Assembly (NCBI GenBank): GCA_951406725.2 | Contig: OX597817.1 | Location: 170,872,001 to 170,936,000 of the forward strand | Direction of reading: 5' to 3' | Length of the DNA stretch: 64,000 nucleotides | From: Octopus vulgaris | Taxonomy: Eukaryota | Shown here: in pieces, positions 3,380 to 60,839 of the stretch | How the letters are laid out: every line of letters starts with the position of its first letter | Position numbering within the stretch: the stretch's first letter is position 1 | Notes under the pieces: generated by a model | The model's input: only the letters and a program-made list of their open reading frames with translations | The model's database searches: none | What the model was told of the DNA's origin: nothing | Translations under genes and position numbers: made by a program

Positions 3380-5703
3380 GTAGTTGTACGTCCAGGACAA
3401 ATAACAAAACTGAAAGGGGAGACTAGAAGACTGTCAAGAAACTGGTTTTTTCGAACTTTATAAAATGGAAAAAAAATCTGGAGAACTTGAATGATTTGCT
3501 CTCCATTGAAAGAAGCCATGATTTGCTTTTGTTGTAAGCTATTTTCAAGTGAAAACTCAAATTTTGCTCAGTTGATGGTTTCAAATCTTGGTGGAAGTTG
3601 AATCCTAAGATACAAGAACATGAATCCAGCCCTGCACATGAGAATGCGTTCACTCAGTGGAAAGAGCTAGAAATTCCCCTTTCCAAAAGCAAGGTAAAAG
3701 ACAAAGAACAACAAACTCTTGTTGAAAATGAAACAAAAAACTGGAAGCAAATCTTGACTAGATTCTTGGACATAATAATGTTTCTTGCTAAACAAAACCT
3801 GGCTTTACGAGGCCATGGAGAAGACATTCGAGTTGAGAAGGAACATAAAAATAAAGGGAATTTTCTGGAGCTTGTCCAACTGATTGGAAAATCTGACCCA
3901 GTGCTATGTGGACATTTGGTGAAAGTAAAATTGATAAGTTTACAACTTCCTATCTCTCACCAAAAATTCAGAATGAATTTGTGAACGTCCTGAGAGATCA
4001 AGTGAGAAAGAAAGTTATCAATGAAATAAAACAAAGTAAATACTATTGCATTATTTTCCATTGTACTCCAGACATTTCTCATATTGACCAAATTTCTCAG
4101 GTGCTACGTTATGTTAAAATAGATGAAAAGGAAGTAAAAATAGAAGAAACCTTTCTTTGTTTTATTGAGATGAAAGGCAAAAATGCTGAGCAAATTACAT
4201 CAACGATTCTGAAACAATTAGAAATGGATGACAATAAGCATTTGATAACACGGCAGTAATGGCAGGTTATCGATCCAGTGTTCAAGTGTACATCACAGAA
4301 GTTAACCCAAAGATTATATTTGTGCTATGCACCAATCATTCTCTGAATTTAGCAGCCGTGCATGCAGCTTCAGTGGATGCAGATTCAATTACATGTTTTG
4401 GTACATTGGACCATTTATTTTCATTCTTCTCAGCTTCCACTCGTCGATGGGATATTTTGATTGAGATAAATGGTGCAACAATCAAACAGGCTGGAGAAAC
4501 AAGATGTAGTCAAGCAGAAGGAGTGGAAGATGTACAAACAAAATTCATGGAAATCATCGCTGCGCTAGAACGGTTGAGGGAAAATGCAGAAAATGCAACT
4601 ACGAGATCTGATGCAGGTTTAATTCTTCAGGCAATGCTGTCATTTTCTTTCTTGTAATTTCTTGACTATTGGAGAGATATACTTCCTGAAATTAATGACA
4701 CTGAAAAGTACTTCCAAACGAAAGGTCTGGAGTTGCAATAATGTGCCATTAAACTATCAGCCTTGAAAACTTCTCTATTTGTAAACAAAGACAAAACATT
4801 GGGCGACGTATTGGCCTATTCAACTGAAATTTGCTCTGATATGGGAATCAGCACAGAGCATCGAATGCACAAAAGGAAAAGAATGAGCTACAAAGAAAGT
4901 ATCGATGCTGTTCTCAGCTACGATGCTGAGCTAAGAAGAGAAATGTTGTCAGTGCTAGACTGGTTGAAGAAATAACCTCTAGACTCGAAAGACTTCACGA
5001 TATTGCAAAGAAATACACCTTTCTCACACAGTCTAATTTGTCAGATAAAGAGTGTAATTGTGATGTAGATGCTTTTGATGAGAATATTAAGAGAGAAAAC
5101 ATTCTGGTTGAAAGGGCAAAACTGCAGAATTATTTGGCGGCTGCTGATGCTGAAGATATAGCAAAACCTTTGCAAGTTCTTCAGTTTATTCAGAAATATA
5201 ATCTTATTGATTCATTGCCAAACATTGTAATACTTTTAAGAGTCTTCCTAATTTGTACCACATTAGTGTTGCTAGCTGTGAACATTCCTTTTCTAAACTA
5301 AAGCTCATCAAGAACCGCTTCAGGTCAACAATAAGTCAAACAAGGTTGACTGATTTGGCAATACTATCCATAGAGCGTGACCTTGCAGATAAAATTAATT
5401 CTGATGAGGTCATTCAAGATTTCACGAAGAGGAAGGCATGTAAAATCAATTTGTAAATTGTTTATTTTTGTAATTCACTCATCTGCTCTTTAACATATTT
5501 TTCCTTTTTTTTTTTCGTGTGTATAAATATAATTAAAGTAAATTTGAGGGAAATAATTGGTTGCTGCAGTTTGTCTTCTTATTTTGCATACACATACACC
5601 TGTATAATTCCATTTTTGGCGTTTTGAAGTGTTATTAGAACTTTTAAGGGGTGGCCAAAATAACATCCACCCCAGGTGGTACTCGTGCTAAGTATGCCAC
5701 TGC
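3380..5703 (+). pseudogene. Decayed hAT-superfamily transposon (ZMYM1/DUF4371-like transposase)
   Basis: Consecutive frameshifted ORFs: FLAKQNLALRGH, GNFLELV, YLSPKIQNE, CTPDISH.DQ, C.NHSLNL, SVASCEHSFSKLKLIK..RST..Q.RL..LAILSIE (hAT dimerisation domain); 3' end ...GCCACTG typical of a hAT TIR. Confidence 0.9.
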
Positions 5704-23948: not shown

Positions 23949-23966
23949 ATGTATGCATGTGATTAT

Positions 23967-25940
23967 ACCTACCTACCTACCTACCTACATACATACATGC
24001 ATGCATACATACATACATACATACATACATACATACATACATACATACATACATACATACATACATACATACATACATACATACACACATACATGCATGC
24101 ATACATACATGCATACATACATACATACATACATACATACACACATACATGCATGCATACATACATACATACATACATACATACATGCATACATACATAC
24201 ATACATACATACATACATACATACATACATACATACATGCATGCATACATACATACATACATACATACATACACACACACATACATACATACATACATAC
24301 ATACATACATACATACATACATACATACATACATACATACATGCATACATACACACATACATGCATGCATACATACATACATGCATACATACATACATAC
24401 ATACACACATACATGCATGCATACATACATACATGCATACATACATACATACATACATACATACACACATACATACATACATACATACATACATACATAC
24501 ATACATACATACATACATACATACATACATACATACATACATACATACATACATACATACATACATACATACATACATACACACATACATACATACATAC
24601 ATACATACATACATACATACATACATACATACATACATACATACATACATACATACACATACATGCATGCATACATACATACATACATACACACACACAT
24701 ACATACATACATACATACATACATACATACATACATACATACATACATACATACATACATACATACATACATACATACATACATACATACACACACATGC
24801 ATGCATACATACATACATGCATACATACATACATACATACACACATACATGCATGCATACATACATACATGCATACATACATACATACATACATACATAC
24901 ATACATACACACATACATACATACATACATACATACATACATGCATACATACATACATACATACATACATACATACATACATACATACATACATACATAC
25001 ATACATACATACATACATACATACATACATACATACATACACACATACATACATACATACATACATACATACATACATACACACATACATACATACATAC
25101 ATACATACATACATGCATACATACATACATACACACATACATGCATACATACATACATACATACATACATACATACATACATACATACATACATACATAC
25201 ATACACACATACATACATACATACATACATACATACATACATACATACATACATACATACATACATACATACATACATACATACATACATACATACATAC
25301 ATACATACATACATACATACATACATACATACATACATACATACATACATGCATACATACATACATACATACATACATACATACATACATACATACATAC
25401 ATACATACATGCATACATACATACACACATACATACATACATACATACATACATACATACATACATACATACATACATACATACATACATACATACATAC
25501 ATACATACATGCATACATGCATACATACATACATACATACATACATACATACATACAAGCATGCATACATAAATACATACATAGATACATACATACATAC
25601 ATACATACATACATACACACACACATACATACACACATACACACATACACATACATACATACATACATACATAAATACATACATAGATACATGCATACAT
25701 ACATACATACATGCATACATACATACATACATACATAAATACATACATACATACATACATACATACATACACACACACATACATACACACATACACACAT
25801 ACACATACATACATACATACATACATAAATACATACATAGATACATACATACATACATACATACATACATACATGCATACATACATACATACATACATAC
25901 ATACATACATACATACATGCATATATACATACACACATAT
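23967..25940. repeat. ~2-kb (CATA)n tetranucleotide array
   Basis: Direct inspection; explains the 529-757 aa ORFs in the track. Confidence 0.98.
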
Positions 25941-25972
25941 ACATATATATATATATATATCATCATCATCAT

Positions 25973-26030
<58 letters not shown>

Positions 26031-26067
26031 CATCATTATTTAATGTCTGCCTTCCATGCCAGCAAGG

Positions 26068-26104
<37 letters not shown>

Positions 26105-26163
26105 TCATCATCATCATATATATATATATGATATATATATATATATATATATCTCATCATCAT

Positions 26164-26207
<44 letters not shown>

Positions 26208-26281
26208 TATATATATATATGATGATGATGATGATATATATATATATATATATATCATCATCATCATCATATATATATATA

Positions 26282-26319
<38 letters not shown>

Positions 26320-26342
26320 TCATCATCATATATATATATATT
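25941..26342. repeat. (TA)n/(CAT)n compound microsatellite
   Basis: Direct inspection. Confidence 0.9.
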
Positions 26343-37196: not shown

Positions 37197-37235
<39 letters not shown>

Positions 37236-37903
37236 CTACAAAATTAGAGAATGGAGAAACATACTTAAATCAGTAAAACATCAACTATCCGATGATACTC
37301 AATCCATACTTTAATACACCATTACATATGAGTAAAGGCAATATATAAAATGAAATGAGATATACAGTAATAGTAAAAAGATAAAGAGATATAAGTAAAA
37401 AATTTCAAATATAATATGCAAATAAATCAAAAACTGACAGCTGTTTCGGCAGTGAGGGCAGTCATACCTCATTTAACCTATAAGCCATAAAGGCAGGTAT
37501 AAATGAGGCATTAACAAGGATGCCCCACGGCCTCTTCAGAGAATTAAATTAAATTTGTTATAATAGTGAAAAATATTATATAATCATATACATATAAATA
37601 TAAAAATATAAAAATGTAAAATATAAAAACTTATACATCATAATGCTACACTTATATAATATAATACACATTTGTACAAAAAAGGAAGGTAAACAGAACA
37701 AAATAAAACAAAATATATAACAGTGTATATATTAATATTAATAAGTACCGATATTATACATATTTGGCTAATAGTTTTTTTTATAAAAAAAAAAAAAAAA
37801 AAAAAAAAGGCTAACACATATGGAGATGAAAAATAATAATTAAAACCATGGTACAGTTCATAAAATTCTAAAGCTATAAAAGTTAATAAAAATTACTATT
37901 AAT

Positions 37904-37968
<65 letters not shown>

Positions 37969-39679
37969 TAATAAAAATAGATACAGTTAAGTTAGCACCA
38001 AGTCCATCCTTTCAAGATCGAAATGACTATGAGTTAAGAAATGCTGACCACTAGGTAAAGAAAATTTAGATTAATTCGATTGGCTATTGGTTTGAAATTT
38101 AAATCACAAAAGAAAATTATACGGTTGGTTAGTCAGGGAACGCCAATATTCACACACGCATCTACAGATCAATCGCACATACACACATAGTTATATGTAT
38201 ATACATACACTTATACACATACATAATCACAAGCAACAACTAGCACTTAGATAAACCAAAAAAGGGAAGCAACTATGCTACCATTTAGTCCTTCAAAATT
38301 ATAACTGTGCCTCAATAACAAAAAGAACCATCCATGCATTCCATAAAATATTCAATTTAGATATAAATATATTTTTAAATATCAGTATGTTACTAAGTCA
38401 GATAATTATTTCATGGGTAACTTAAAATTTATAACACCGGTTTGTTGCAGAGTAAACATACGGTTGTTAGATTTATCGTAAGTTTGTTATGATTTTAAGT
38501 ACGCTAAATTATAAAATATAAAATATAAAATATATATTAATTTAAATATTATAAATAAGTCACTTATTAACTTAATAAATATAGTGCCATAATATACCAG
38601 TTTAGGCATTAAAAAATAGAAGGGGAAGCACTAATGTAAACGCTTATGAGAACATCACAGAAATTTTAAATAAATTTTATATTATAAAGACTTAAGATGA
38701 AAAGTGATAAAATAAATAAGAAGGAATAAATACGAAGGAATAAATACGGTTATACACATAATTATAAGTACAAACCAGTATATATGTATTCATATATTAT
38801 TAAAATTAAATAAAAATAAATGATAGATATGTATGTATAAAACTACCCCAGTATAAGTAAATAAGTAAAAAAATAAATAGGTAACAAATTAGATGACTTG
38901 ATATGTATGTAAACATCCACACTTAAATAGGCAAATAAATAAATAAATAGAAGACTAGATGCAAAGATTGATAACATTACAATAAAATGGAAAATAAATA
39001 AAAAATAAATAAAGTGAATATATATGTTATATTGTTGAATGTAAATATGTATGGAAGGATAGTTTAAAGTACAGATCCAGAGGACTATAGATATAAACTA
39101 AATATATAAGGCTGGTAATAATTATAAAGCAAAATGCATGTAAATGAGAAAATGAAAAAAATGAAAAAGGTTTATCAGTGAATAGCATAAGATACAAATT
39201 AAGGTGAGTACAAAAAGACCAAATATACAATAAAAACCTTCCAAATAAACACATACAAAAAACCTATAATCTTAACCTAAACCCACCAAACTCACAAAAG
39301 GCTCTCATATATTACATATTATACAATATCATTACATTATCCAGAGCTAGGTATCTAACCAAGATATATATACATACTATGCAATATACTATGCAATATT
39401 AGAAAACTTCAAAAATCACACATTACAAGGCAAATACCAAAATGAATATGTTATTTTATGTCATATTGCATTTCTCTTAAAAAACAAACAAAAACCCACA
39501 TACAAAAAACAAGAAACCAATAATACTAGACACATCCATTAATTATTATACAAATGTAGCTATAAAAATTATAAAATTATAAAATTTATAAATTGTATAC
39601 TTTAGAATTATAGAAGACCACAGGTATATTTAGTTAAAGAAGGGAATTAAAAAATTAATAATAGTGGAAGTGCTAAGTT

Positions 39680-40290
39680 CTATTTGAATCTAGAAAAGGT
39701 GAACGGTAGCCTATGAATACAAAGAAGTTTTTCATTAATGTTGTTAATAATTTGCCGACCCGCTTTAATAATGAAGAAAATTTCATTAATACATAGAGAG
39801 CATTTTTTATTTTTCCATTATACAGGTGCTGAAGTTAGTATTTTCCAGTTTAATCTAAAATCTAAGTTCTTACTTTTAAGTTCCCAAATGTATGCACTTA
39901 GCCCTGTAGAGTACATTCTATTTTTATTTCTAAAAGTATATCTGTGATAATTCCATCTTTGTTTTATGCTATTCATAGTTGCCCCGATATACACCCTACT
40001 ACTCAATTGTGTATCTACAGTGCATTGGTAAACTACCTCCTTCCTGAGGCATTGATTACCAAATACACATTTATTTTTATTTCTGCAATTACAAAGATTA
40101 ACAGAATAAGGAAATCTAAGATTGGACACCACCCCTATACTACTATTCACATTATAAGTGTTACAATTGTTATCATCATCCAAACCCAAAATCAACGAAT
40201 GAGTTAATTTCACATTATCGGCTATATTCCTATCACTAGTACTAGTAATGGTAGTAGTAGTATGATCTATTACATTTATATTATCTCTGA
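39680..40290 (-). pseudogene. Mirror copy of the GIY-YIG fragment
   Basis: ORF 39818-40213(-) matches the right-arm protein except FPYS/FPHS and a 2-bp deletion giving an early stop. Confidence 0.85.
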
Positions 40291-40349
40291 GCCACCATTA
40301 TCTTCTCTTTAATAACAAGAAACTGGATCACTTCTATAAGGATAGAAAA

Positions 40350-41081
40350 TTGAATTTAGACCAGGAAAACTTGCCCCTCTTCATTAATAATAGGAATAGA
40401 AACTTTCTTGGAACGAATGGGAACAACCTCCTTACTAATAATGAGTGCACCGTACCTGTCAGAGATAATATAAATGTAATAGATCATACTACTACTACCA
40501 TTACTAGTACTAGTGATAGGAATATAGCCGATAATGTGAAATTAACTCATTCGTTGATTTTGGGTTTGGATGATGATAACAATTGTAACACTTATAATGT
40601 GAATAGTAGTATAGGGGTGGTGTCCAATCTTAGATTTCCTCATTCTGTTAATCTTTGTAATTGCAGAAATAAAAATAAATGTGTATTTGGTAATCAATGC
40701 CTCAGGAAGGAGGTAGTTTACCAATGCACTGTAGATACACAATTGAGTAGTAGGGTGTATATCGGGGCAACTATGAATAGCATAAAACAAAGATGGAATT
40801 ATCACAGATATACTTTTAGAAATAAAAATAGAATGTACTCTACAGGGCTAAGTGCATACATTTGGGAACTTAAAAGTAAGAACTTAGATTTTAGATTAAA
40901 CTGGAAAATACTAACTTCAGCACCTGTGTATAATGGAAAAAATAAAAATGCTCTCTATGTATTAATGAAATTTTCTTCATTATTAAAGCGGGTCGGCAAA
41001 TTATTAACAACATTAATGAAAAAAACTTCTTTTGTATTCATAGGCTACCGTTCACCTTTTCTAGATTCAAATAGAACTTAG
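40350..41081 (+). CDS. Penelope-type GIY-YIG endonuclease domain (5'-truncated, frameshift near 40945)
   Basis: CNCR..C...N.CL..VVY..(13)..YIG.T...KQRW.YH..F....STGLS.YIW.LK; alternative frame continues CSLCINE. Confidence 0.85.
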   Translation: MNLDQENLPLFINNRNRNFLGTNGNNLLTNNECTVPVRDNINVIDHTTTTITSTSDRNIADNVKLTHSLILGLDDDNNCNTYNVNSSIGVVSNLRFPHSVNLCNCRNKNKCVFGNQCLRKEVVYQCTVDTQLSSRVYIGATMNSIKQRWNYHRYTFRNKNRMYSTGLSAYIWELKSKNLDFRLNWKILTSAPVYNGKNKNALYVLMKFSSLLKRVGKLLTTLMKKTSFVFIGYRSPFLDSNRT

Positions 41082-42787
41082 CACTTCCACTATTATTAAT
41101 TTTTTAATTCCCTTCTTTAACTAAATATACCTGTGGTCTTCTATAATTCTAAAGTATACAATTTATAAATTTTATAATTTTATAATTTTTATAGCTACAT
41201 TTGTATAATAATTAATGGATGTGTCTAGTATTATTGGTTTCTTGTTTTTTGTATGTGGGTTTTTGTTTGTTTTTTAAGAGAAATGCAATATGACATAAAA
41301 TAACATATTCATTTTGGTATTTGCCTTGTAATGTGTGATTTTTGAAGTTTTCTAATATTGCATAGTATATTGCATAGTATGTATATATATCTTGGTTAGA
41401 TACCTAGCTCTGGATAATGTAATGATATTGTATAATATGTAATATATGAGAGCCTTTTGTGAGTTTGGTGGGTTTAGGTTAAGATTATAGGTTTTTTGTA
41501 TGTGTTTATTTGGAAGGTTTTTATTGTATATTTGGTCTTTTTGTACTCACCTTAATTTGTATCTTATGCTATTCACTGATAAACCTTTTTCATTTTTTTC
41601 ATTTTCTCATTTACATGCATTTTGCTTTATAATTATTACCAGCCTTATATATTTAGTTTATATCTATAGTCCTCTGGATCTGTACTTTAAACTATCCTTC
41701 CATACATATTTACATTCAACAATATAACATATATATTCACTTTATTTATTTTTTATTTATTTTCCATTTTATTGTAATGTTATCAATCTTTGCATCTAGT
41801 CTTCTATTTATTTATTTATTTGCCTATTTAAGTGTGGATGTTTACATACATATCAAGTCATCTAATTTGTTACCTATTTATTTTTTTACTTATTTACTTA
41901 TACTGGGGTAGTTTTATACATACATATCTATCATTTATTTTTATTTAATTTTAATAATATATGAATACATATATACTGGTTTGTACTTATAATTATGTGT
42001 ATAACCGTATTTATTCCTTCGTATTTATTCCTTCTTATTTATTTTATCACTTTTCATCTTAAGTCTTTATAATATAAAATTTATTTAAAATTTCTGTGAT
42101 GTTCTCATAAGCGTTTACATTAGTGCTTCCCCTTCTATTTTTTAATGCCTAAACTGGTATATTATGGCACTATATTTATTAAGTTAATAAGTGACTTATT
42201 TATAATATTTAAATTAATATATATTTTATATTTTATATTTTATAATTTAGCGTACTTAAAATCATAACAAACTTACGATAAATCTAACAACCGTATGTTT
42301 ACTCTGCAACAAACCGGTGTTATAAATTTTAAGTTACCCATGAAATAATTATCTGACTTAGTAACATACTGATATTTAAAAATATATTTATATCTAAATT
42401 GAATATTTTATGGAATGCATGGATGGTTCTTTTTTTGTTATTGAGGCACAGTTATAATTTTGAAGGACTAAATGGTAGCATAGTTGCTTCCCTTTTTTGG
42501 TTTATCTAAGTGCTAGTTGTTGCTTGTGATTATGTATGTGTATAAGTGTATGTATATACATATAACTATGTGTGTATGTGCGATTGATCTGTAGATGCGT
42601 GTGTGAATATTGGCGTTCCCTGACTAACCAACCGTATAATTTTCTTTTGTGATTTAAATTTCAAACCAATAGCCAATCGAATTAATCTAAATTTTCTTTA
42701 CCTAGTGGTCAGCATTTCTTAACTCATAGTCATTTCGATCTTGAAAGGATGGACTTGGTGCTAACTTAACTGTATCTATTTTTATTA

Positions 42788-42851
<64 letters not shown>

Positions 42852-43202
42852 ATTAATAGTAATTTTTATTAACTTTTATAGCTTTAGAATTTTATGAACT
42901 GTACCATGGTTTTAATTATTATTTTTCATCTCCATATGTGTTAGCCTTTTTTTTTTTTTTTTTTTTTATAAAAACTATTAGCCAAATATGTATAATATCG
43001 GTACTTATTAATATTAATATATACACTGTTATATATTTTGTTTTATTTTGTTCTGTTTACCTTCCTTTTTTGTACAAATGTGTATTATATTATATAAGTG
43101 TAGCATTATGATGTATAAGTTTTTATATTTTACATTTTTATATTTTTATATTTATATGTATATGATTATATAATATTTTTCACTATTATAACAAATTTAA
43201 CT

Positions 43203-43320
43203 TAATTCTCTGAAGAGGCCGTGGGGCATCCTTGTTAATGCCTCATTTATACCTGCCTTTATGGCTTATAGGTTAAATGAGGTATGACTGCCCTCACTGC
43301 CGAAACAGCTGTCAGTTTTT
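43203..43320 (+). ncRNA. Hammerhead motif with long stem-II insert (Penelope pLTR); mirror copy ~37430-37545 (-)
   Basis: CUGAAGA-GGC.GUGGGGCA...UGCCCUCAC.GCC-GAAA-CAGCUG-UC; palindromic stem III; stem I weak. Confidence 0.65.
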
Positions 43321-43686
43321 GATTTATTTGCATATTATATTTGAAATTTTTTACTTATATCTCTTTATCTTTTTACTATTACTGTATATCTCATTTCATT
43401 TTATATATTGCCTTTACTCATATGTAATGGTGTATTAAAGTATGGATTGAGTATCATCGGATAGTTGATGTTTTACTGATTTAAGTATGTTTCTCCATTC
43501 TCTAATTTTGTAGTATTAATTTACGGTAATATTATTACCTTTACCCATATAATACAATAGATGAACTGATTGTTTGACAATTTTTAACATCTATGTATTA
43601 TTTTTGTTGGGTACCTATCTAGCAGTATATTGGATATATATTATCCCATGGTGGGTTGAATTTTCAACCCCTATCTCAATTTATAA

Positions 43687-43724
<38 letters not shown>

Positions 43725-43770
43725 CATACATACATATATATATATTTATATATATATGTATATATATATA

Positions 43771-44676
43771 ACAAAAGGGACATTAGCCATTTGAATGTGG
43801 TTAGGGACAGGGCAGGGCGGTGGGGGTGTTACCGATGCATTTAGCCCCAGGCGATCATCAACGTCACCAGATAGGCTTGACACCATCACGGTGTCCTCTA
43901 TCCTGCAAAGGGAGATCATTCCCCGAAGAAGCGGATGCCACACACGGACCCAGGTTTCAAGGTGTTTGCCTCTCGTCAACGTATGGTAGGCACCGCCCCT
44001 CGACGAACGACTCTCTGTGCAGGATATTTATATATAGATTTTCACGTAAATACATTTACTGATTTCGAAAATCTGTTCGACAGCAATAATAATTCTCTAA
44101 ACGAGATATAGACAGTAACTGCTCCATTACAAAAGGGACATTAGCCATTTGAATGTGGCTAGGGACAGGGCAGGGCGGTGGGGGTGTTACTGATGCATTT
44201 AGCCCCAGGCGATCATCAACGTCACCAGATAGGCTTGACACCATCACGGTGTCCTCTATCCTGCAAAGGGAGATCATTCCCCGAAGAAGTCTATATCTCG
44301 TTTACAGAATTATTATTGCTGTCGAACAGATTTTCGAAATCAGTAAATGTATTTACGTGAAAATCTATATATAAATATCCTGCACAGAGAGTCGTTCGTC
44401 GAGGGGCGGTGCCTACCATACGTTGACGAGAGGCAAACACCTTGAAACCTGGGTCCATGTGTGACATCCGCTTCTTCGGGGAATGATCTCCCTTTGCAGG
44501 ATAGAGGACACCGTGATAGTGTCAAGCCTATCTGGTGACGTTGATGATCGCCTGGGGCTAAATGCATCAGTAACACCCCCACTGCCCTGCCCTGTCCCTA
44601 GCCACATTCAAATGGCTAATGTCCCTTTTGTTATGGAGCAGTTACTGTCTATATCTCGTTTAGAGAATTATTATTG

Positions 44677-44680
<4 letters not shown>
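43771..44680. mobile_element. 358-bp tandem/inverted retrozyme-like repeat
   Basis: Unit 43771-44128, partial second unit 44129-44288, inverted unit 44289-44680; (TA)n on both sides; HHR motif in each full unit. Confidence 0.75.
43941..43985 (-). ncRNA. Type-I hammerhead motif, U3 variant (second copy 44417-44461, +)
   Basis: CAUACG-UUGACGA-GAGG(caaaca)CCUU-GAAA-CCUGGG-UC-CGUGUG. Confidence 0.7.
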
Positions 44681-48764: not shown

Positions 48765-49110
48765 TTAATGCAGTTCTATATTTAAGAGATGAGGAATTAT
48801 ATACATTATTTACATTATTTACATTCGACGGATATTTGTCCTCATCTTGTTTGTTGTTAATACAACATTTCAGCTGATATATCCTCCAGCCTTCTTCAGG
48901 TGTCTTGGGGAAATTTCGAACTGGGTTCTCATTCCTAAGGTATTTTTCGATGTTATTATTATTATTATTATTGTTATTGTTATTGTTCAGGTCACTGCTT
49001 GGAATTGATCTCGGAATTTTGGGGTTAGTAGCCCACACTCTTAATCACTACGCCATATGCTCATGGGCATATGGCTTAGTGATCTAAACAATAACAACAA
49101 CAACACCAAC

Positions 49111-49156
<46 letters not shown>

Positions 49157-49305
49157 TCAAAAAATACCTCAGGAATGAGAACCCAGGTTTGAAATTTCCC
49201 CAAGACACCTGATGAAGGCTGGAGGGGATATCAGCTGAAACATTGTGTTAACAACAAACAAGATGAGGACAAATATCTATCGAATGTAAATAATGTAAAT
49301 AATGT
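48765..49305. mobile_element. Head-to-head pair of tRNA-headed, hammerhead-containing elements
   Basis: Minus copy: TGGCGTAGTGA A-box, GATCAATTCC B-box-like, (AAT)n, HHR; plus copy has a deleted head; arms ~48800-48990 / 49085-49305. Confidence 0.75.
49204..49249 (+). ncRNA. Minimal type-I hammerhead motif (mirror ~48858-48905, -)
   Basis: GACAC-CUGAUGA-A-GGCUG(..)CAGCU-GAAA-CA-UU-GUGUU. Confidence 0.7.
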
Positions 49306-50289
49306 GATATTTAGAAAAGGACAAAAGGCAAAGTCAACCTCAGAAGAATTTGAACACGGAACATATGGACAGATGAAATACTACTAAGCATTTCACCCAG
49401 CGTGCCAGTGATTTGACCAGCTTGCTGCCTGTATAGCTATATTCATCATAATGAAGCCTATTGTATGAGTTGTTCTGATCACATTGTACAATGTTAACAT
49501 AAATATACTACGGTTTACTAATTTGATTCTATGCTGTGTAGGTGTATTGATTGTAATTAAGCCTATCATATGAATTATTCTGATCAAACTGTAGAACTTT
49601 ACAGCAAAAACCCATAAATTTTCTTGGCTATTAAAACTGCTTACACATGTTGTTGCTGCTGTTGTTGTTGCGCAACAGATCAATCCTAATGAAGCAATGT
49701 AAAGGCTGCCATATTTGCTTGTATATCTAATTTATAATGCTATATAATGTTATATAATAAATCTGATTATTTATGTAATAAACATCATATATTAACAACT
49801 AAACAGTATATAATATACATACATACATGTGTTTGAGTGTGTATGTGCGTGCGCATGTGTGAGTGTGTAATTATATATATATATATGTATGTATTATGTT
49901 ATATATAAAAGATATTAACTGGATATACTATAAACTACATGTAAGATGTAACATATTACACATGGTATAAAGCATATCTAATTATTTCTTATATTATTTA
50001 GGCTCCAGGTCAACCATGATTCAGTGAAATCTATGATCAAAGATTTCTAATCATGATCGTTCTATGTTTCATTTATCTCATAGTCTACTTTATCAATATG
50101 TTCCTTTTTCTCTTTTTCATTTGTTTGATAGTGAATTGAAATGATTTGCAGGTGATTTTGTTGGTATTTTTAGCAGGTCAAGGTGACCATACAAAGGCTT
50201 TCTCTCTCATTGGCTCTCAAGCTCACACATTTTCCACCAAGATATATCTGTTTAGCTAGTTATAAATCCCCATATATATATATATATAT

Positions 50290-58499: not shown

Positions 58500-58571
58500 A
58501 TAATGATAATAATGATGATAATAATAATAATAATGATAATGATAATAATGATAATAATAATAATAATAATA

Positions 58572-58615
<44 letters not shown>

Positions 58616-58664
58616 AATAATAATGAGAATAATAATAATAATAATAATAGTAATAATAATGATG

Positions 58665-58701
<37 letters not shown>

Positions 58702-58736
58702 TGATAATAATAATAATAATAATAATAGTAATAATG

Positions 58737-58800
<64 letters not shown>

Positions 58801-58823
58801 TAATAATAATAATAATAATAATA

Positions 58824-58859
<36 letters not shown>

Positions 58860-58886
58860 GTAATAATAATGATGATGATAATAATG

Positions 58887-58944
<58 letters not shown>

Positions 58945-59040
58945 TGATGATGATGATTATGGTGATGATAATAATAATGAGAATAATAATAATAATAAAA
59001 ATAATAATGATGATGATGATGATTATGATGATAATAATGA

Positions 59041-59091
<51 letters not shown>

Positions 59092-59141
59092 TGATGATGA
59101 TGATAATAGTAATGATAATAGTAATAATAATAATGATGATA

Positions 59142-59173
<32 letters not shown>

Positions 59174-59217
59174 AATAATAATAATAATAATAATGATGAT
59201 GATGATGATAATAATGA

Positions 59218-59261
<44 letters not shown>

Positions 59262-59337
59262 TTAATAATAATAATAATAATAATGATAATATTAATAATA
59301 ATAATGATGATGATGATTATGATGATAATAATAATGA

Positions 59338-59379
<42 letters not shown>

Positions 59380-59400
59380 TGATGATGATGATAATAATGA

Positions 59401-59482
<82 letters not shown>

Positions 59483-59512
59483 TGATGATGATTATGATGA
59501 TAATAATAATGA

Positions 59513-59554
<42 letters not shown>

Positions 59555-59605
59555 TAATAATAATAATAATAATAATAGTAATAATAATGATGATGATAAT
59601 AATGA

Positions 59606-59668
<63 letters not shown>

Positions 59669-59735
59669 TGATGATGATGATTATGGTGATGATAATAATA
59701 ATGAGAATAATAATAATAATAAAAATAATAATAAT

Positions 59736-59770
<35 letters not shown>

Positions 59771-59791
59771 TGATGATGATGATAATAATGA

Positions 59792-59866
<75 letters not shown>

Positions 59867-59896
59867 TGATGATGATTATGATGATAATAATAATGA

Positions 59897-59947
<51 letters not shown>

Positions 59948-59984
59948 TAATAATAGTTAATAATAATGATGATGATAATAATGA

Positions 59985-60023
<39 letters not shown>

Positions 60024-60839
60024 TATATTCACTGGGTAATCTGTAAAAACCTGGATTTGCCCCATGAAAAAAAAAACTGGTGGGAACACAAACCACCCCC
60101 AGTGCTTGAAAATGACCACATCTCACTCCTCTGGAACTTCACCATTCAAACTGACAGGAAGATAGATGCAAATAGGCCAGACATCATATTGAAAAACTTC
60201 AAACAAAGAACATGCCTCCTCATTGATATGACTGTCCCAATCGATATAAACGTATCTGTCAAGACCTACCAAAAACTGAGCAAATATAAAGATCTTGAAA
60301 TAGAAATCAGCAAAATGTGGAAGCTGAAGACTAAAACAATACCTGTTGTCATAGGTGCCCTGGGAATGATAGCAAAAGGGGCTGATAGCTACCTAACTCA
60401 GATACCAGGAAACCCAAAAATGGCAGAAGTTCAAAAGATAGTGCTCATGGGAACTGCTCATATCCTACGCAAAATACTCTCTATGTAATCTCAAGGTTTA
60501 AAACAAACATAATTTTCGGTTTAAAAAAAAAAAAAAAAAAAAAAAATTTTTTTTTTTTTTAGACATTCATTAGTACAACATCCCCACCCCCAAATATATG
60601 GCACACTAGGCATAACAACAAGATGAACTTCCAACCCTGTTGTCTCTTGAGGTCTCTGGGTGAGACTTGGAGCCAACTTGTACAAATATAAAGCAAAAGT
60701 CAAACATAGAATAATAATAATAATAATAATAATGATGATGATGATGATTATGGTGATGATGACAATAATGAGAATAATAATAATAATAATAATAATAAAA
60801 ATAATAATGATGATGATGATGATTATGATGATAATAATG

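What the first reader, a model, noticed from the sequence alone, without database searches (positions are those of the whole stretch)
37235..43514. 6.3-kb palindrome (3056-bp arms, 168-bp spacer) made of a Penelope-like GIY-YIG element
Seen: two near-identical arms that differ by a few substitutions (e.g. FPYS vs FPHS) and homopolymer lengths. The right arm runs ~175 bp further to (TA)n. Two divergent GIY-YIG fragments face outward from the centre and no RT is present. The 3' non-coding region is ~2.5 kb and very AT-rich. Inference: a recent insertion with an unusually long inverted segment; read-through would give ~3 kb of dsRNA (substrate for ADAR or small-RNA pathways) and the DNA could extrude a cruciform.
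Basis: partly seen in the sequence, partly recalled or inferred. Interest (0 to 1): 0.7.

Follow-up and report, generated by a model that had tools for sequence, protein, structure and literature searches.

The report
Two-armed Penelope retroelement insertion palindrome
This 6.3-kb mirror-image stretch is a real, recent insertion of a Penelope-type jumping gene in a back-to-back layout already known for this class, but across the genome such pairs always combine one short and one long end, which suggests that both cut DNA strands likely start copying the same RNA and makes an open question about these elements testable.

Summary
The palindrome is real: 3,056-bp arms, 99.4% alike, 168-bp spacer, 174-bp tail on the right arm, (TA)n on both sides. 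It is a 5'-truncated, two-armed insertion of a young Hydra-clade Penelope-like element (5.6-kb unit; one copy has an intact RT plus GIY-YIG frame; hundreds of ends genome-wide). An inverted truncated copy with a one-sided tail is published for this class, so the layout is known. The arms are long for the family but not unique: palindromes of about 12 and 15 kb exist. The added value is a strict rule: 64 of 64 resolved two-armed insertions pair one 'short' end with one 'long' end 175 bases further on. In 24 of 59 neither arm can be a copy of the other, yet arms share private variants and often stop at the same inner base. Best reading: both nicked target strands prime reverse transcription at two fixed sites on one RNA, and the two cDNAs are joined head to head (inferred). 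Read-through dsRNA and cruciforms are untested. This scan noted the layout and a near-strict short/long rule earlier on other DNA of this genome.

The parts
37202..37234 (.). (TA)n target, left half
37235..40290 (-). Left arm: unit positions u2366-u5404, ends at the 'short' end, no tail
37436..37539 (-). Hammerhead ribozyme motif, left copy (intact core, long stem II, palindromic stem III, weak stem I); activity untested
38030..38030 (-). Candidate RNA 5' end (u4634), left copy, pointing outward; inferred from a pile-up of inner ends in other copies
39821..40290 (-). GIY-YIG endonuclease fragment, left arm, with CxCX5C at 40067-40093; frame broken by a 2-bp indel
40291..40458 (+). 168-bp spacer: element sequence u2197-u2365 that only the right arm carries; 1 base shared at the head-to-head junction
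40291..41081 (+). C-terminal part of the element's ORF: end of the Asn-rich linker plus GIY-YIG endonuclease (CxCX5C at 40656-40682, VYIG at 40755-40766); last residues shifted by a homopolymer difference against the intact copy
40459..43514 (+). Right arm, mirror of the left arm
42726..42726 (+). Candidate RNA 5' end (u4634), right copy, pointing outward
43210..43313 (+). Hammerhead ribozyme motif, right copy; predicted cut after 43313
43515..43688 (+). One-sided tail between the short end (u5403) and the long end (u5578)
43689..43770 (.). (TA)n-rich target, right half

Best explanation
This is one insertion of a young Hydra-clade Penelope-like retroelement into a (TA)n repeat, made of two 5'-truncated copies joined head to head, and it was likely built by two reverse-transcription events on one RNA, one primed from each cut strand of the target. 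Shown: element identity, target, two fixed outer ends 175 bases apart, one of each per insertion, variable inner ends, arms more alike than any sister copy in most insertions. Inferred: the endonuclease nicks both strands of (TA)n; one 3' end starts copying at the short site (u5403) and the other at the long site (u5578) of the same sense RNA; the second cDNA displaces the first (these RTs lack RNase H, recalled); both stop at variable points or at the RNA's 5' end; their 3' ends are joined through 0-6 shared bases and each is filled in against the other. Here the long cDNA ran 3.38 kb and the short one 3.04 kb; the 168-bp difference is the spacer. The copy has no RT and cannot move by itself.
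For: Family: intact 960-residue stop-to-stop frame in L023 with RWR, DKT, YRDD, CxCX5C, VYIG, CxxC, CxH, the Hydra motifs of PMC8557442 section 11; conserved in relatives (DK[TS] 52 of 53); language-model neighbours GIY-YIG 0.94 and RT 0.95-0.97; model's best fold matches are telomerase RTs, E 1.2e-9. End rule: among 107 short and 57 long ends listed on C1, C2 and the first 68.6 Mb of C3, all 25 outward-facing pairs within 13 kb are short+long, 0 of 200,000 label shuffles do that; 59 of 59 resolved junction loci among 97 loci (3 more unresolved) and 5 more of 12 further loci (2 unresolved), 64 of 64 in all; 18 of these were picked without regard to their ends. Two independent templated arms: the short arm reaches further 5' in 25 of 59, the long arm in 23, within 20 bases in 11; in 24 the short arm is longer and has no tail, and 11 long arms are tail-only and share nothing with the other arm. 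One template: window arms 2 differences in 2,022 sites against 5 for the nearest and 24.5 for the median sister, with 2 private shared bases; 26 census pairs 13 differences in 12,196 sites against 207; inner ends within 30 bases of each other in 13 of 41 pairs, 0 of 20,000 shuffles; 18 of 98 inner ends in u4625-4665, from both arm types, with a sharp edge at u4634. 117 of 121 outer ends are followed by TA-rich DNA. Short-read contigs of four studies show the short end joined to (TA)n. In vitro, an anole Penelope-like protein cuts and extends both strands and starts at two internal sites that bound the tail (PMC11167929).
Against: No step of the mechanism was observed; it is read from insertion anatomy. 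For this one insertion the long arm is the longer, so fold-back copying fits its geometry too. Arms were not closer than the nearest sister in 7 of 23 inverted piece pairs of the top-hit set (L053, L054 twice counted among gapped or nested loci, L057, and three cases of 1 against 0.5) and 2 of 26 census pairs. Arm likeness could also come from two RNAs of one source locus or from later gene conversion. PMC11167929 found no difference in start site between the two strands and describes no pairing rule. 25 of the 64 were found with exact end patterns, which favours precise ends. 32 of 97 loci are single-armed. Pfam gives no hit for this protein, and only 4 and 1 of 54 aligned members hit RVT_1 and GIY-YIG. 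No reads were laid on this insertion's own centre junction.
Confidence: 0.7

Rival explanations
1. Fold-back self-priming: one cDNA (or an antisense template) snaps back on itself and copies itself, and the intermediate is cut at the short site, as proposed for rotifer Penelope elements.
For: Proposed in PMC3846280 discussion. Arms are near-identical. Three insertions (L091, L095, L128) are spacer-less palindromes at u4634, beside an imperfect short palindrome. The window's own geometry fits.
Against: In 24 of 59 insertions the tail-less arm is the longer one, and 11 long arms share no sequence with their partner; neither can be a copy of the other. Spacers run from 0 to several kb.
Confidence: 0.1
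2. One cDNA with a template switch: synthesis starts at the long site on sense RNA, jumps to an antisense RNA whose 5' end is the short site, and ends there.
For: Explains the short+long rule and non-overlapping arms; antisense templates and bidirectional promoters were suggested in PMC3846280.
Against: Short ends outnumber long ends (543 against 367 exact matches) and occur alone with a ragged inner end. Short ends are precise, as starts are, and all 34 resolved right ends of the 38 top-hit loci lie at one of the two sites. Both arm types pile up at u4634. Arms share private variants.
Confidence: 0.08
3. Two priming events as in the best reading, but on two RNA molecules from one source locus, or arms made alike later by gene conversion.
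For: A few insertions have arms no closer than sister copies. An earlier scan note reports post-insertion homogenisation at another palindrome (e1-8666025, unchecked).
Against: Two RNAs would each offer both sites, so short+short and long+long should occur; none of 64 does. Inner ends of the two arms are coupled.
Confidence: 0.09
4. Assembly artefact from a fold-back chimeric read.
For: No read data were laid on this junction; many arm differences are homopolymer lengths.
Against: The mirror stops exactly at the element's short end, outer flanks are unrelated, each arm has its own substitution against 43 and 58 sister pieces, and the same end rule holds at 63 other loci. The short-end junction is in contigs of four studies.
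Confidence: 0.03

Closest known systems
Hydra clade of C-terminal endonuclease Penelope-like elements, including Hydra-1_Obim and Penelope-13_HM (Craig et al. 2021, PMC8557442; passages, section 11 and supplement tables seen)
   Same: Single ORF with RT then GIY-YIG; RW[K/R], DKT, CxCX5C, CxxC, CxH; hammerhead motif in the 3' part; (TA)n targets. Penelope-13_HM is listed with a 966-nt inverted 5'-truncated copy. Hydra-1_Obim shares motif strings by eye.
   Different: Unit 5,578 bp against generally under 3 kb; 2.6-kb 3' non-coding part; YRDD-to-CxC distance 433 residues against a median near 220 in 21 relatives, filled by Asn-rich sequence; stem II of the ribozyme about 85 bases; a different family from Hydra-1_Obim (2,507 bp, other ribozyme sequence; identity not computed).
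Canonical Penelope-like insertion unit: partial tandem, adjacent inverted 5'-truncated copy, one-sided tail (PMC8557442 Fig. 2 legend; PMC3846280 passages and discussion; PMC8969392 passages)
   Same: Head-to-head inverted copy, tail at one end, partial direct tandems (42 tail-to-start junctions genome-wide), Asn-rich linker as in rotifer Pen2a.
   Different: Tail 174-175 bp against 30-40 bp; arms up to full unit length; tail side counted here as strictly one of two ends; the self-priming explanation offered there fails for 24 of 59 insertions.
Anole Poseidon element PAc in vitro (Frangieh et al. 2024, PMC11167929; parts 1-2 of 4 read: abstract, main text, start of methods)
   Same: Both target strands cut and extended, AT-rich targets, two internal start sites that match the tail boundaries.
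   Different: Other clade; its tail lies inside the ORF start and is short; the paper reports no coupling of the two sites within one insertion and does not model the inverted arm.
L1 twin priming (recalled, no call)
   Same: Two target strands prime on one RNA and give an inversion joined by microhomology.
   Different: In L1 the two pieces cover non-overlapping parts of the RNA and the second start is variable; here both starts are fixed and the arms usually copy the same sequence twice.

Membership tests
Hydra-clade Penelope-like element | Single ORF, RT followed by C-terminal GIY-YIG endonuclease | tested here: met
   L023 frame; atlas and fold matches. The window copy keeps only the endonuclease end.
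Hydra-clade Penelope-like element | RWK motif and DKT in place of DKG | tested here: met
   RWR at 50 and DKT at 151; column 52 is R in 23 and K in 18 of 53 relatives.
Hydra-clade Penelope-like element | CxCX5C linker, CxxC and CxH near the C-terminus, no CCHH | tested here: met
   CxCX5C at 822, CxxC at 920, CxH at 948; absence of CCHH judged by eye.
Hydra-clade Penelope-like element | Insertion into (TA)n | tested here: met
   117 of 121 outer ends TA-rich.
Hydra-clade Penelope-like element | Canonical hammerhead ribozyme motif | tested here: inconclusive
   Core, stem II (fold z -4.7) and stem III present; stem I weak; Rfam gave no hammerhead match; cleavage untested.
Hydra-clade Penelope-like element | Generally short (under 3 kb; a tendency, not a diagnostic) | tested here: not met
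   5,578 bp.
Hydra-clade Penelope-like element | Placement inside the Hydra clade on an RT tree | not tested
   Named Hydra proteins were seen only as supplement text; no tree was built.
Canonical Penelope-like insertion unit | Inverted 5'-truncated copy adjacent at the 5' end | tested here: met
Canonical Penelope-like insertion unit | Tail at one end only | tested here: met
   64 of 64 resolved; length 174-175 bp instead of 30-40.
Canonical Penelope-like insertion unit | Target-site duplication | tested here: inconclusive
   Hidden in (TA)n on both sides.
MITE or foldback DNA transposon | Fixed terminal inverted repeats with equal ends and a fixed interior | tested here: not met
   Unequal outer ends, variable inner junctions, single-armed and tandem copies.

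The most novel reading that the evidence does not exclude
Penelope-like elements integrate by paired initiation: one RNA is read twice, from two fixed sites that bound the tail, each used once and each primed by a different target strand, so that a head-to-head palindrome is the normal product; this replaces self-priming as the source of inverted pseudo-LTRs and makes this family a steady maker of multi-kilobase palindromes.
Probability: 0.55. Interest if true: 0.65.

Novelty: new member of a known kind. Interest (0 to 1): 0.45.

Why it matters
How Penelope-like elements make their tandem and inverted insertions is named as unresolved in PMC8557442 and PMC11167929. This family is young, abundant and has an unusually long tail, so the two ends are easy to tell apart. 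That turns 'tail often at one end' into a counted rule, excludes fold-back copying for 24 of 59 insertions, and gives a sharp prediction for an existing in vitro system. It also means the genome carries many near-perfect inverted repeats up to 15 kb, which could seed rearrangements or dsRNA where they are transcribed (untested). The palindrome as a single object is ordinary.

Tried and rejected
Splice-site idea: the short end follows a polypyrimidine tract and AG, but contigs of four runs showed no GT-AG joint there; contigs show presence only and the runs are only guessed to be RNA, so this is no proof. One 105-base skip in one contig near the predicted ribozyme cut has non-splice ends and was set aside. 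Expression: no RNA holder on record was listed; no evidence either way. Read support for this insertion's centre junction was not obtained (one search gave no result), so it stays open. Ribozyme cutting in vivo: 10 of 98 inner ends lie in u5195-5240 (p 0.004 against flanks, window chosen after looking; 5 just upstream against 8 just downstream of the cut), a weak hint only; many tandems run through the cut site. Microhomology by exact extension was confounded by SNPs against the reference copy (only 26 of 62 usable); BLAST overlaps were 1-6 bases in 30 of 59, blunt in 12, short insertions or gaps in 11, 8-18 in 6, some over-extended. Dimer prediction of residues 14-510: no answer. Pfam, PDB sequences and Rfam gave no useful match; the word-index search gave one relative. 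L058 was first taken for a tail-only inverted arm; its tail piece is direct and was dropped. C4b looked like a short+short pair but is two separate insertions 3.85 kb apart, each in its own (TA)n. Not counted: L125 (short+long by eye, decayed), L107 (too divergent to align), L049 (single arm with internal rearrangement). Rough age 0.14 My (0.02-0.5) rests on 2 substitutions and a rate borrowed from a passage of PMC13282606; RT errors would lower it. Paper searches for the pairing rule; none listed a paper that counts it. [quoted passage not shown]
Full report
Observation. The palindrome is in the sequence as described: 37235-40290 mirrors 43514-40459 at 99.38%, with 3,056-bp arms and a 168-bp spacer. 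Two true substitutions and one 2-bp indel separate the arms outside homopolymer runs; each arm carries one private change against 43 and 58 sister pieces. The right arm continues 174 bp to 43688. (TA)n lies on both sides and the outer flanks are unrelated.

What it is. An 810-bp query from the centre gave 484 candidates, 40 scored, all 99% or more alike. I fetched 37 other insertions around those hits. One, L023, has an intact 960-residue stop-to-stop frame and defines a 5,578-bp unit (positions 'u'): start codon u139, hammerhead core u5101, predicted cut after u5204. Pfam gave nothing for it, so I tested the domains otherwise. Language-model neighbours were GIY-YIG (0.94; the family is on 32% and 11% of those clusters' members) and RT (0.95-0.97). 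A model built on 54 sequences (pLDDT 78.6) matched telomerase RTs best, E 1.2e-9, as expected for Penelope-like RTs. The motifs that PMC8557442 gives for the Hydra clade (section 11) are all present and conserved in relatives. The family is larger than described Hydra elements, with an Asn-rich linker (21% Asn in residues 516-815) and a 2.6-kb 3' region. The window holds u2366-5404 inverted and u2196-5578 forward: no RT, so it cannot move alone. An earlier scan note calls this genome an octopus; I did not test that.

The layout is the family's norm. Copies end at two fixed sites: short (u5403, a few bases of play) and long (u5578). Exact patterns found 543 short and 367 long ends joined to TA repeats, none for the reversed control patterns; 42 long ends run on into a further unit start. 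In the range where both lists were complete, 107 short and 57 long ends gave 25 outward-facing pairs within 13 kb, all short+long; one other close pair was two short ends in the same direction. I then fetched those 25, plus 14 unpaired long and 20 unpaired short ends on C1. Of 97 loci, 62 had a head-to-head junction: 59 short+long, 3 unresolved by gaps or a contig end; 32 were single-armed and 3 were left out. Twelve further loci added 5 short+long, among them palindromes of about 11.9 and 15.4 kb with two full units, and 2 unresolved. An apparent short+short case was two separate insertions. Total: 64 of 64. On C1, 21 of 28 long ends have an inverted partner. Shared arm length in the 41 census insertions had a median of 228 bp and none reached 3 kb; in the 18 top-hit insertions 5 did.

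How it likely works. Three facts constrain the mechanism. First, both outer ends are fixed and both inner ends vary, which marks the outer ends as starts of synthesis (inference from target-primed reverse transcription). Second, the arms are not copies of each other: the short arm reaches further in 25 of 59, in 24 of them without any tail, and 11 long arms are tail-only. Third, the arms seem to share a template: 2 differences in 2,022 sites here against 5 to the nearest sister, 13 in 12,196 sites over 26 census pairs against 207, private shared bases, and inner ends within 30 bases in 13 of 41 pairs. Eighteen of 98 inner ends fall in u4625-4665; five end exactly at u4634 by exact extension and two more by junction context, from both arm types, which fits an RNA 5' end there. 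The simplest account is paired priming on one RNA: each nicked strand of (TA)n starts at one of the two sites, the trailing cDNA displaces the leading one, and the two 3' ends are joined through a few shared bases. The anole element in vitro cuts and extends both strands and starts at the two tail boundaries (PMC11167929), which supplies the chemistry but not the coupling. Against: exceptions in arm likeness (7 of 23 piece pairs, 2 of 26), a window geometry that also fits fold-back, and no direct observation of any step.

Independent data. Contigs of four runs from four studies, laid on L023, show the short end joined to (TA)n in 4 of 4, the long end in 2 of 4, and the tail-to-start junction bridged in 4 of 4. 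This supports the two end types, not this particular insertion, and says nothing on expression.

Comparison and novelty. [quoted passage not shown] So this is a new member of a known kind. Seven paper searches listed no paper that counts the pairing rule or tests it against self-priming; older papers outside the library may. Earlier notes of this scan report the layout, a near-strict short/long rule and two-strand extension on other DNA; they are unchecked notes, read after my own counts, and one favours fold-back for other families.

Verdict. Real, recent, ordinary as an object; useful as part of a clean natural test of how Penelope-like elements make inverted insertions. The dsRNA and cruciform ideas remain untested. 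Interest 0.45.

Noticed in passing
window 43768-44678: A second, unrelated non-coding unit of about 360 bp in partial tandem plus an inverted copy, in the same TA-rich stretch right beside the right arm; same kind of layout.
   Followed up: partly
window 48799-49310: Older self-inverted element (80% alike) with hammerhead-like core halves at 48889 (-) and 49209 (+).
   Followed up: partly
G000:C12:45016069-45017660 (L145+L146): Internally deleted mini-form of the family: a unit of about 480 bp (u5306-5578 plus u1-209) in direct tandem and inverted, without the ribozyme, still with one short and one long end.
   Followed up: partly
G000:C7:51216431-51231836 and C7:119539240-119551186: Palindromes of about 15.4 and 11.9 kb, each arm a full unit plus an upstream partial unit.
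   Followed up: partly
L050, L058, L049, L044 direct tandems: Direct tandem pieces within one insertion are identical at all unmasked sites and can share private bases (7 in L058), and several start upstream of the candidate RNA 5' end; a circular or multimeric template would fit.
   Followed up: partly
L023 ORF residues about 516-815: Asn-rich, largely disordered linker between RT and endonuclease with a small folded domain at 647-725; resembles the N-rich inserts described in rotifer Penelope elements.
   Followed up: partly
window 3553-5298: Broken reading frames that look like a decayed hAT-type transposase (recalled likeness, by eye).
   Followed up: no
window 23965-26341 and 58500-60025: Very long microsatellites, about 519 copies of ATAC and 508 of ATA.
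   Followed up: no
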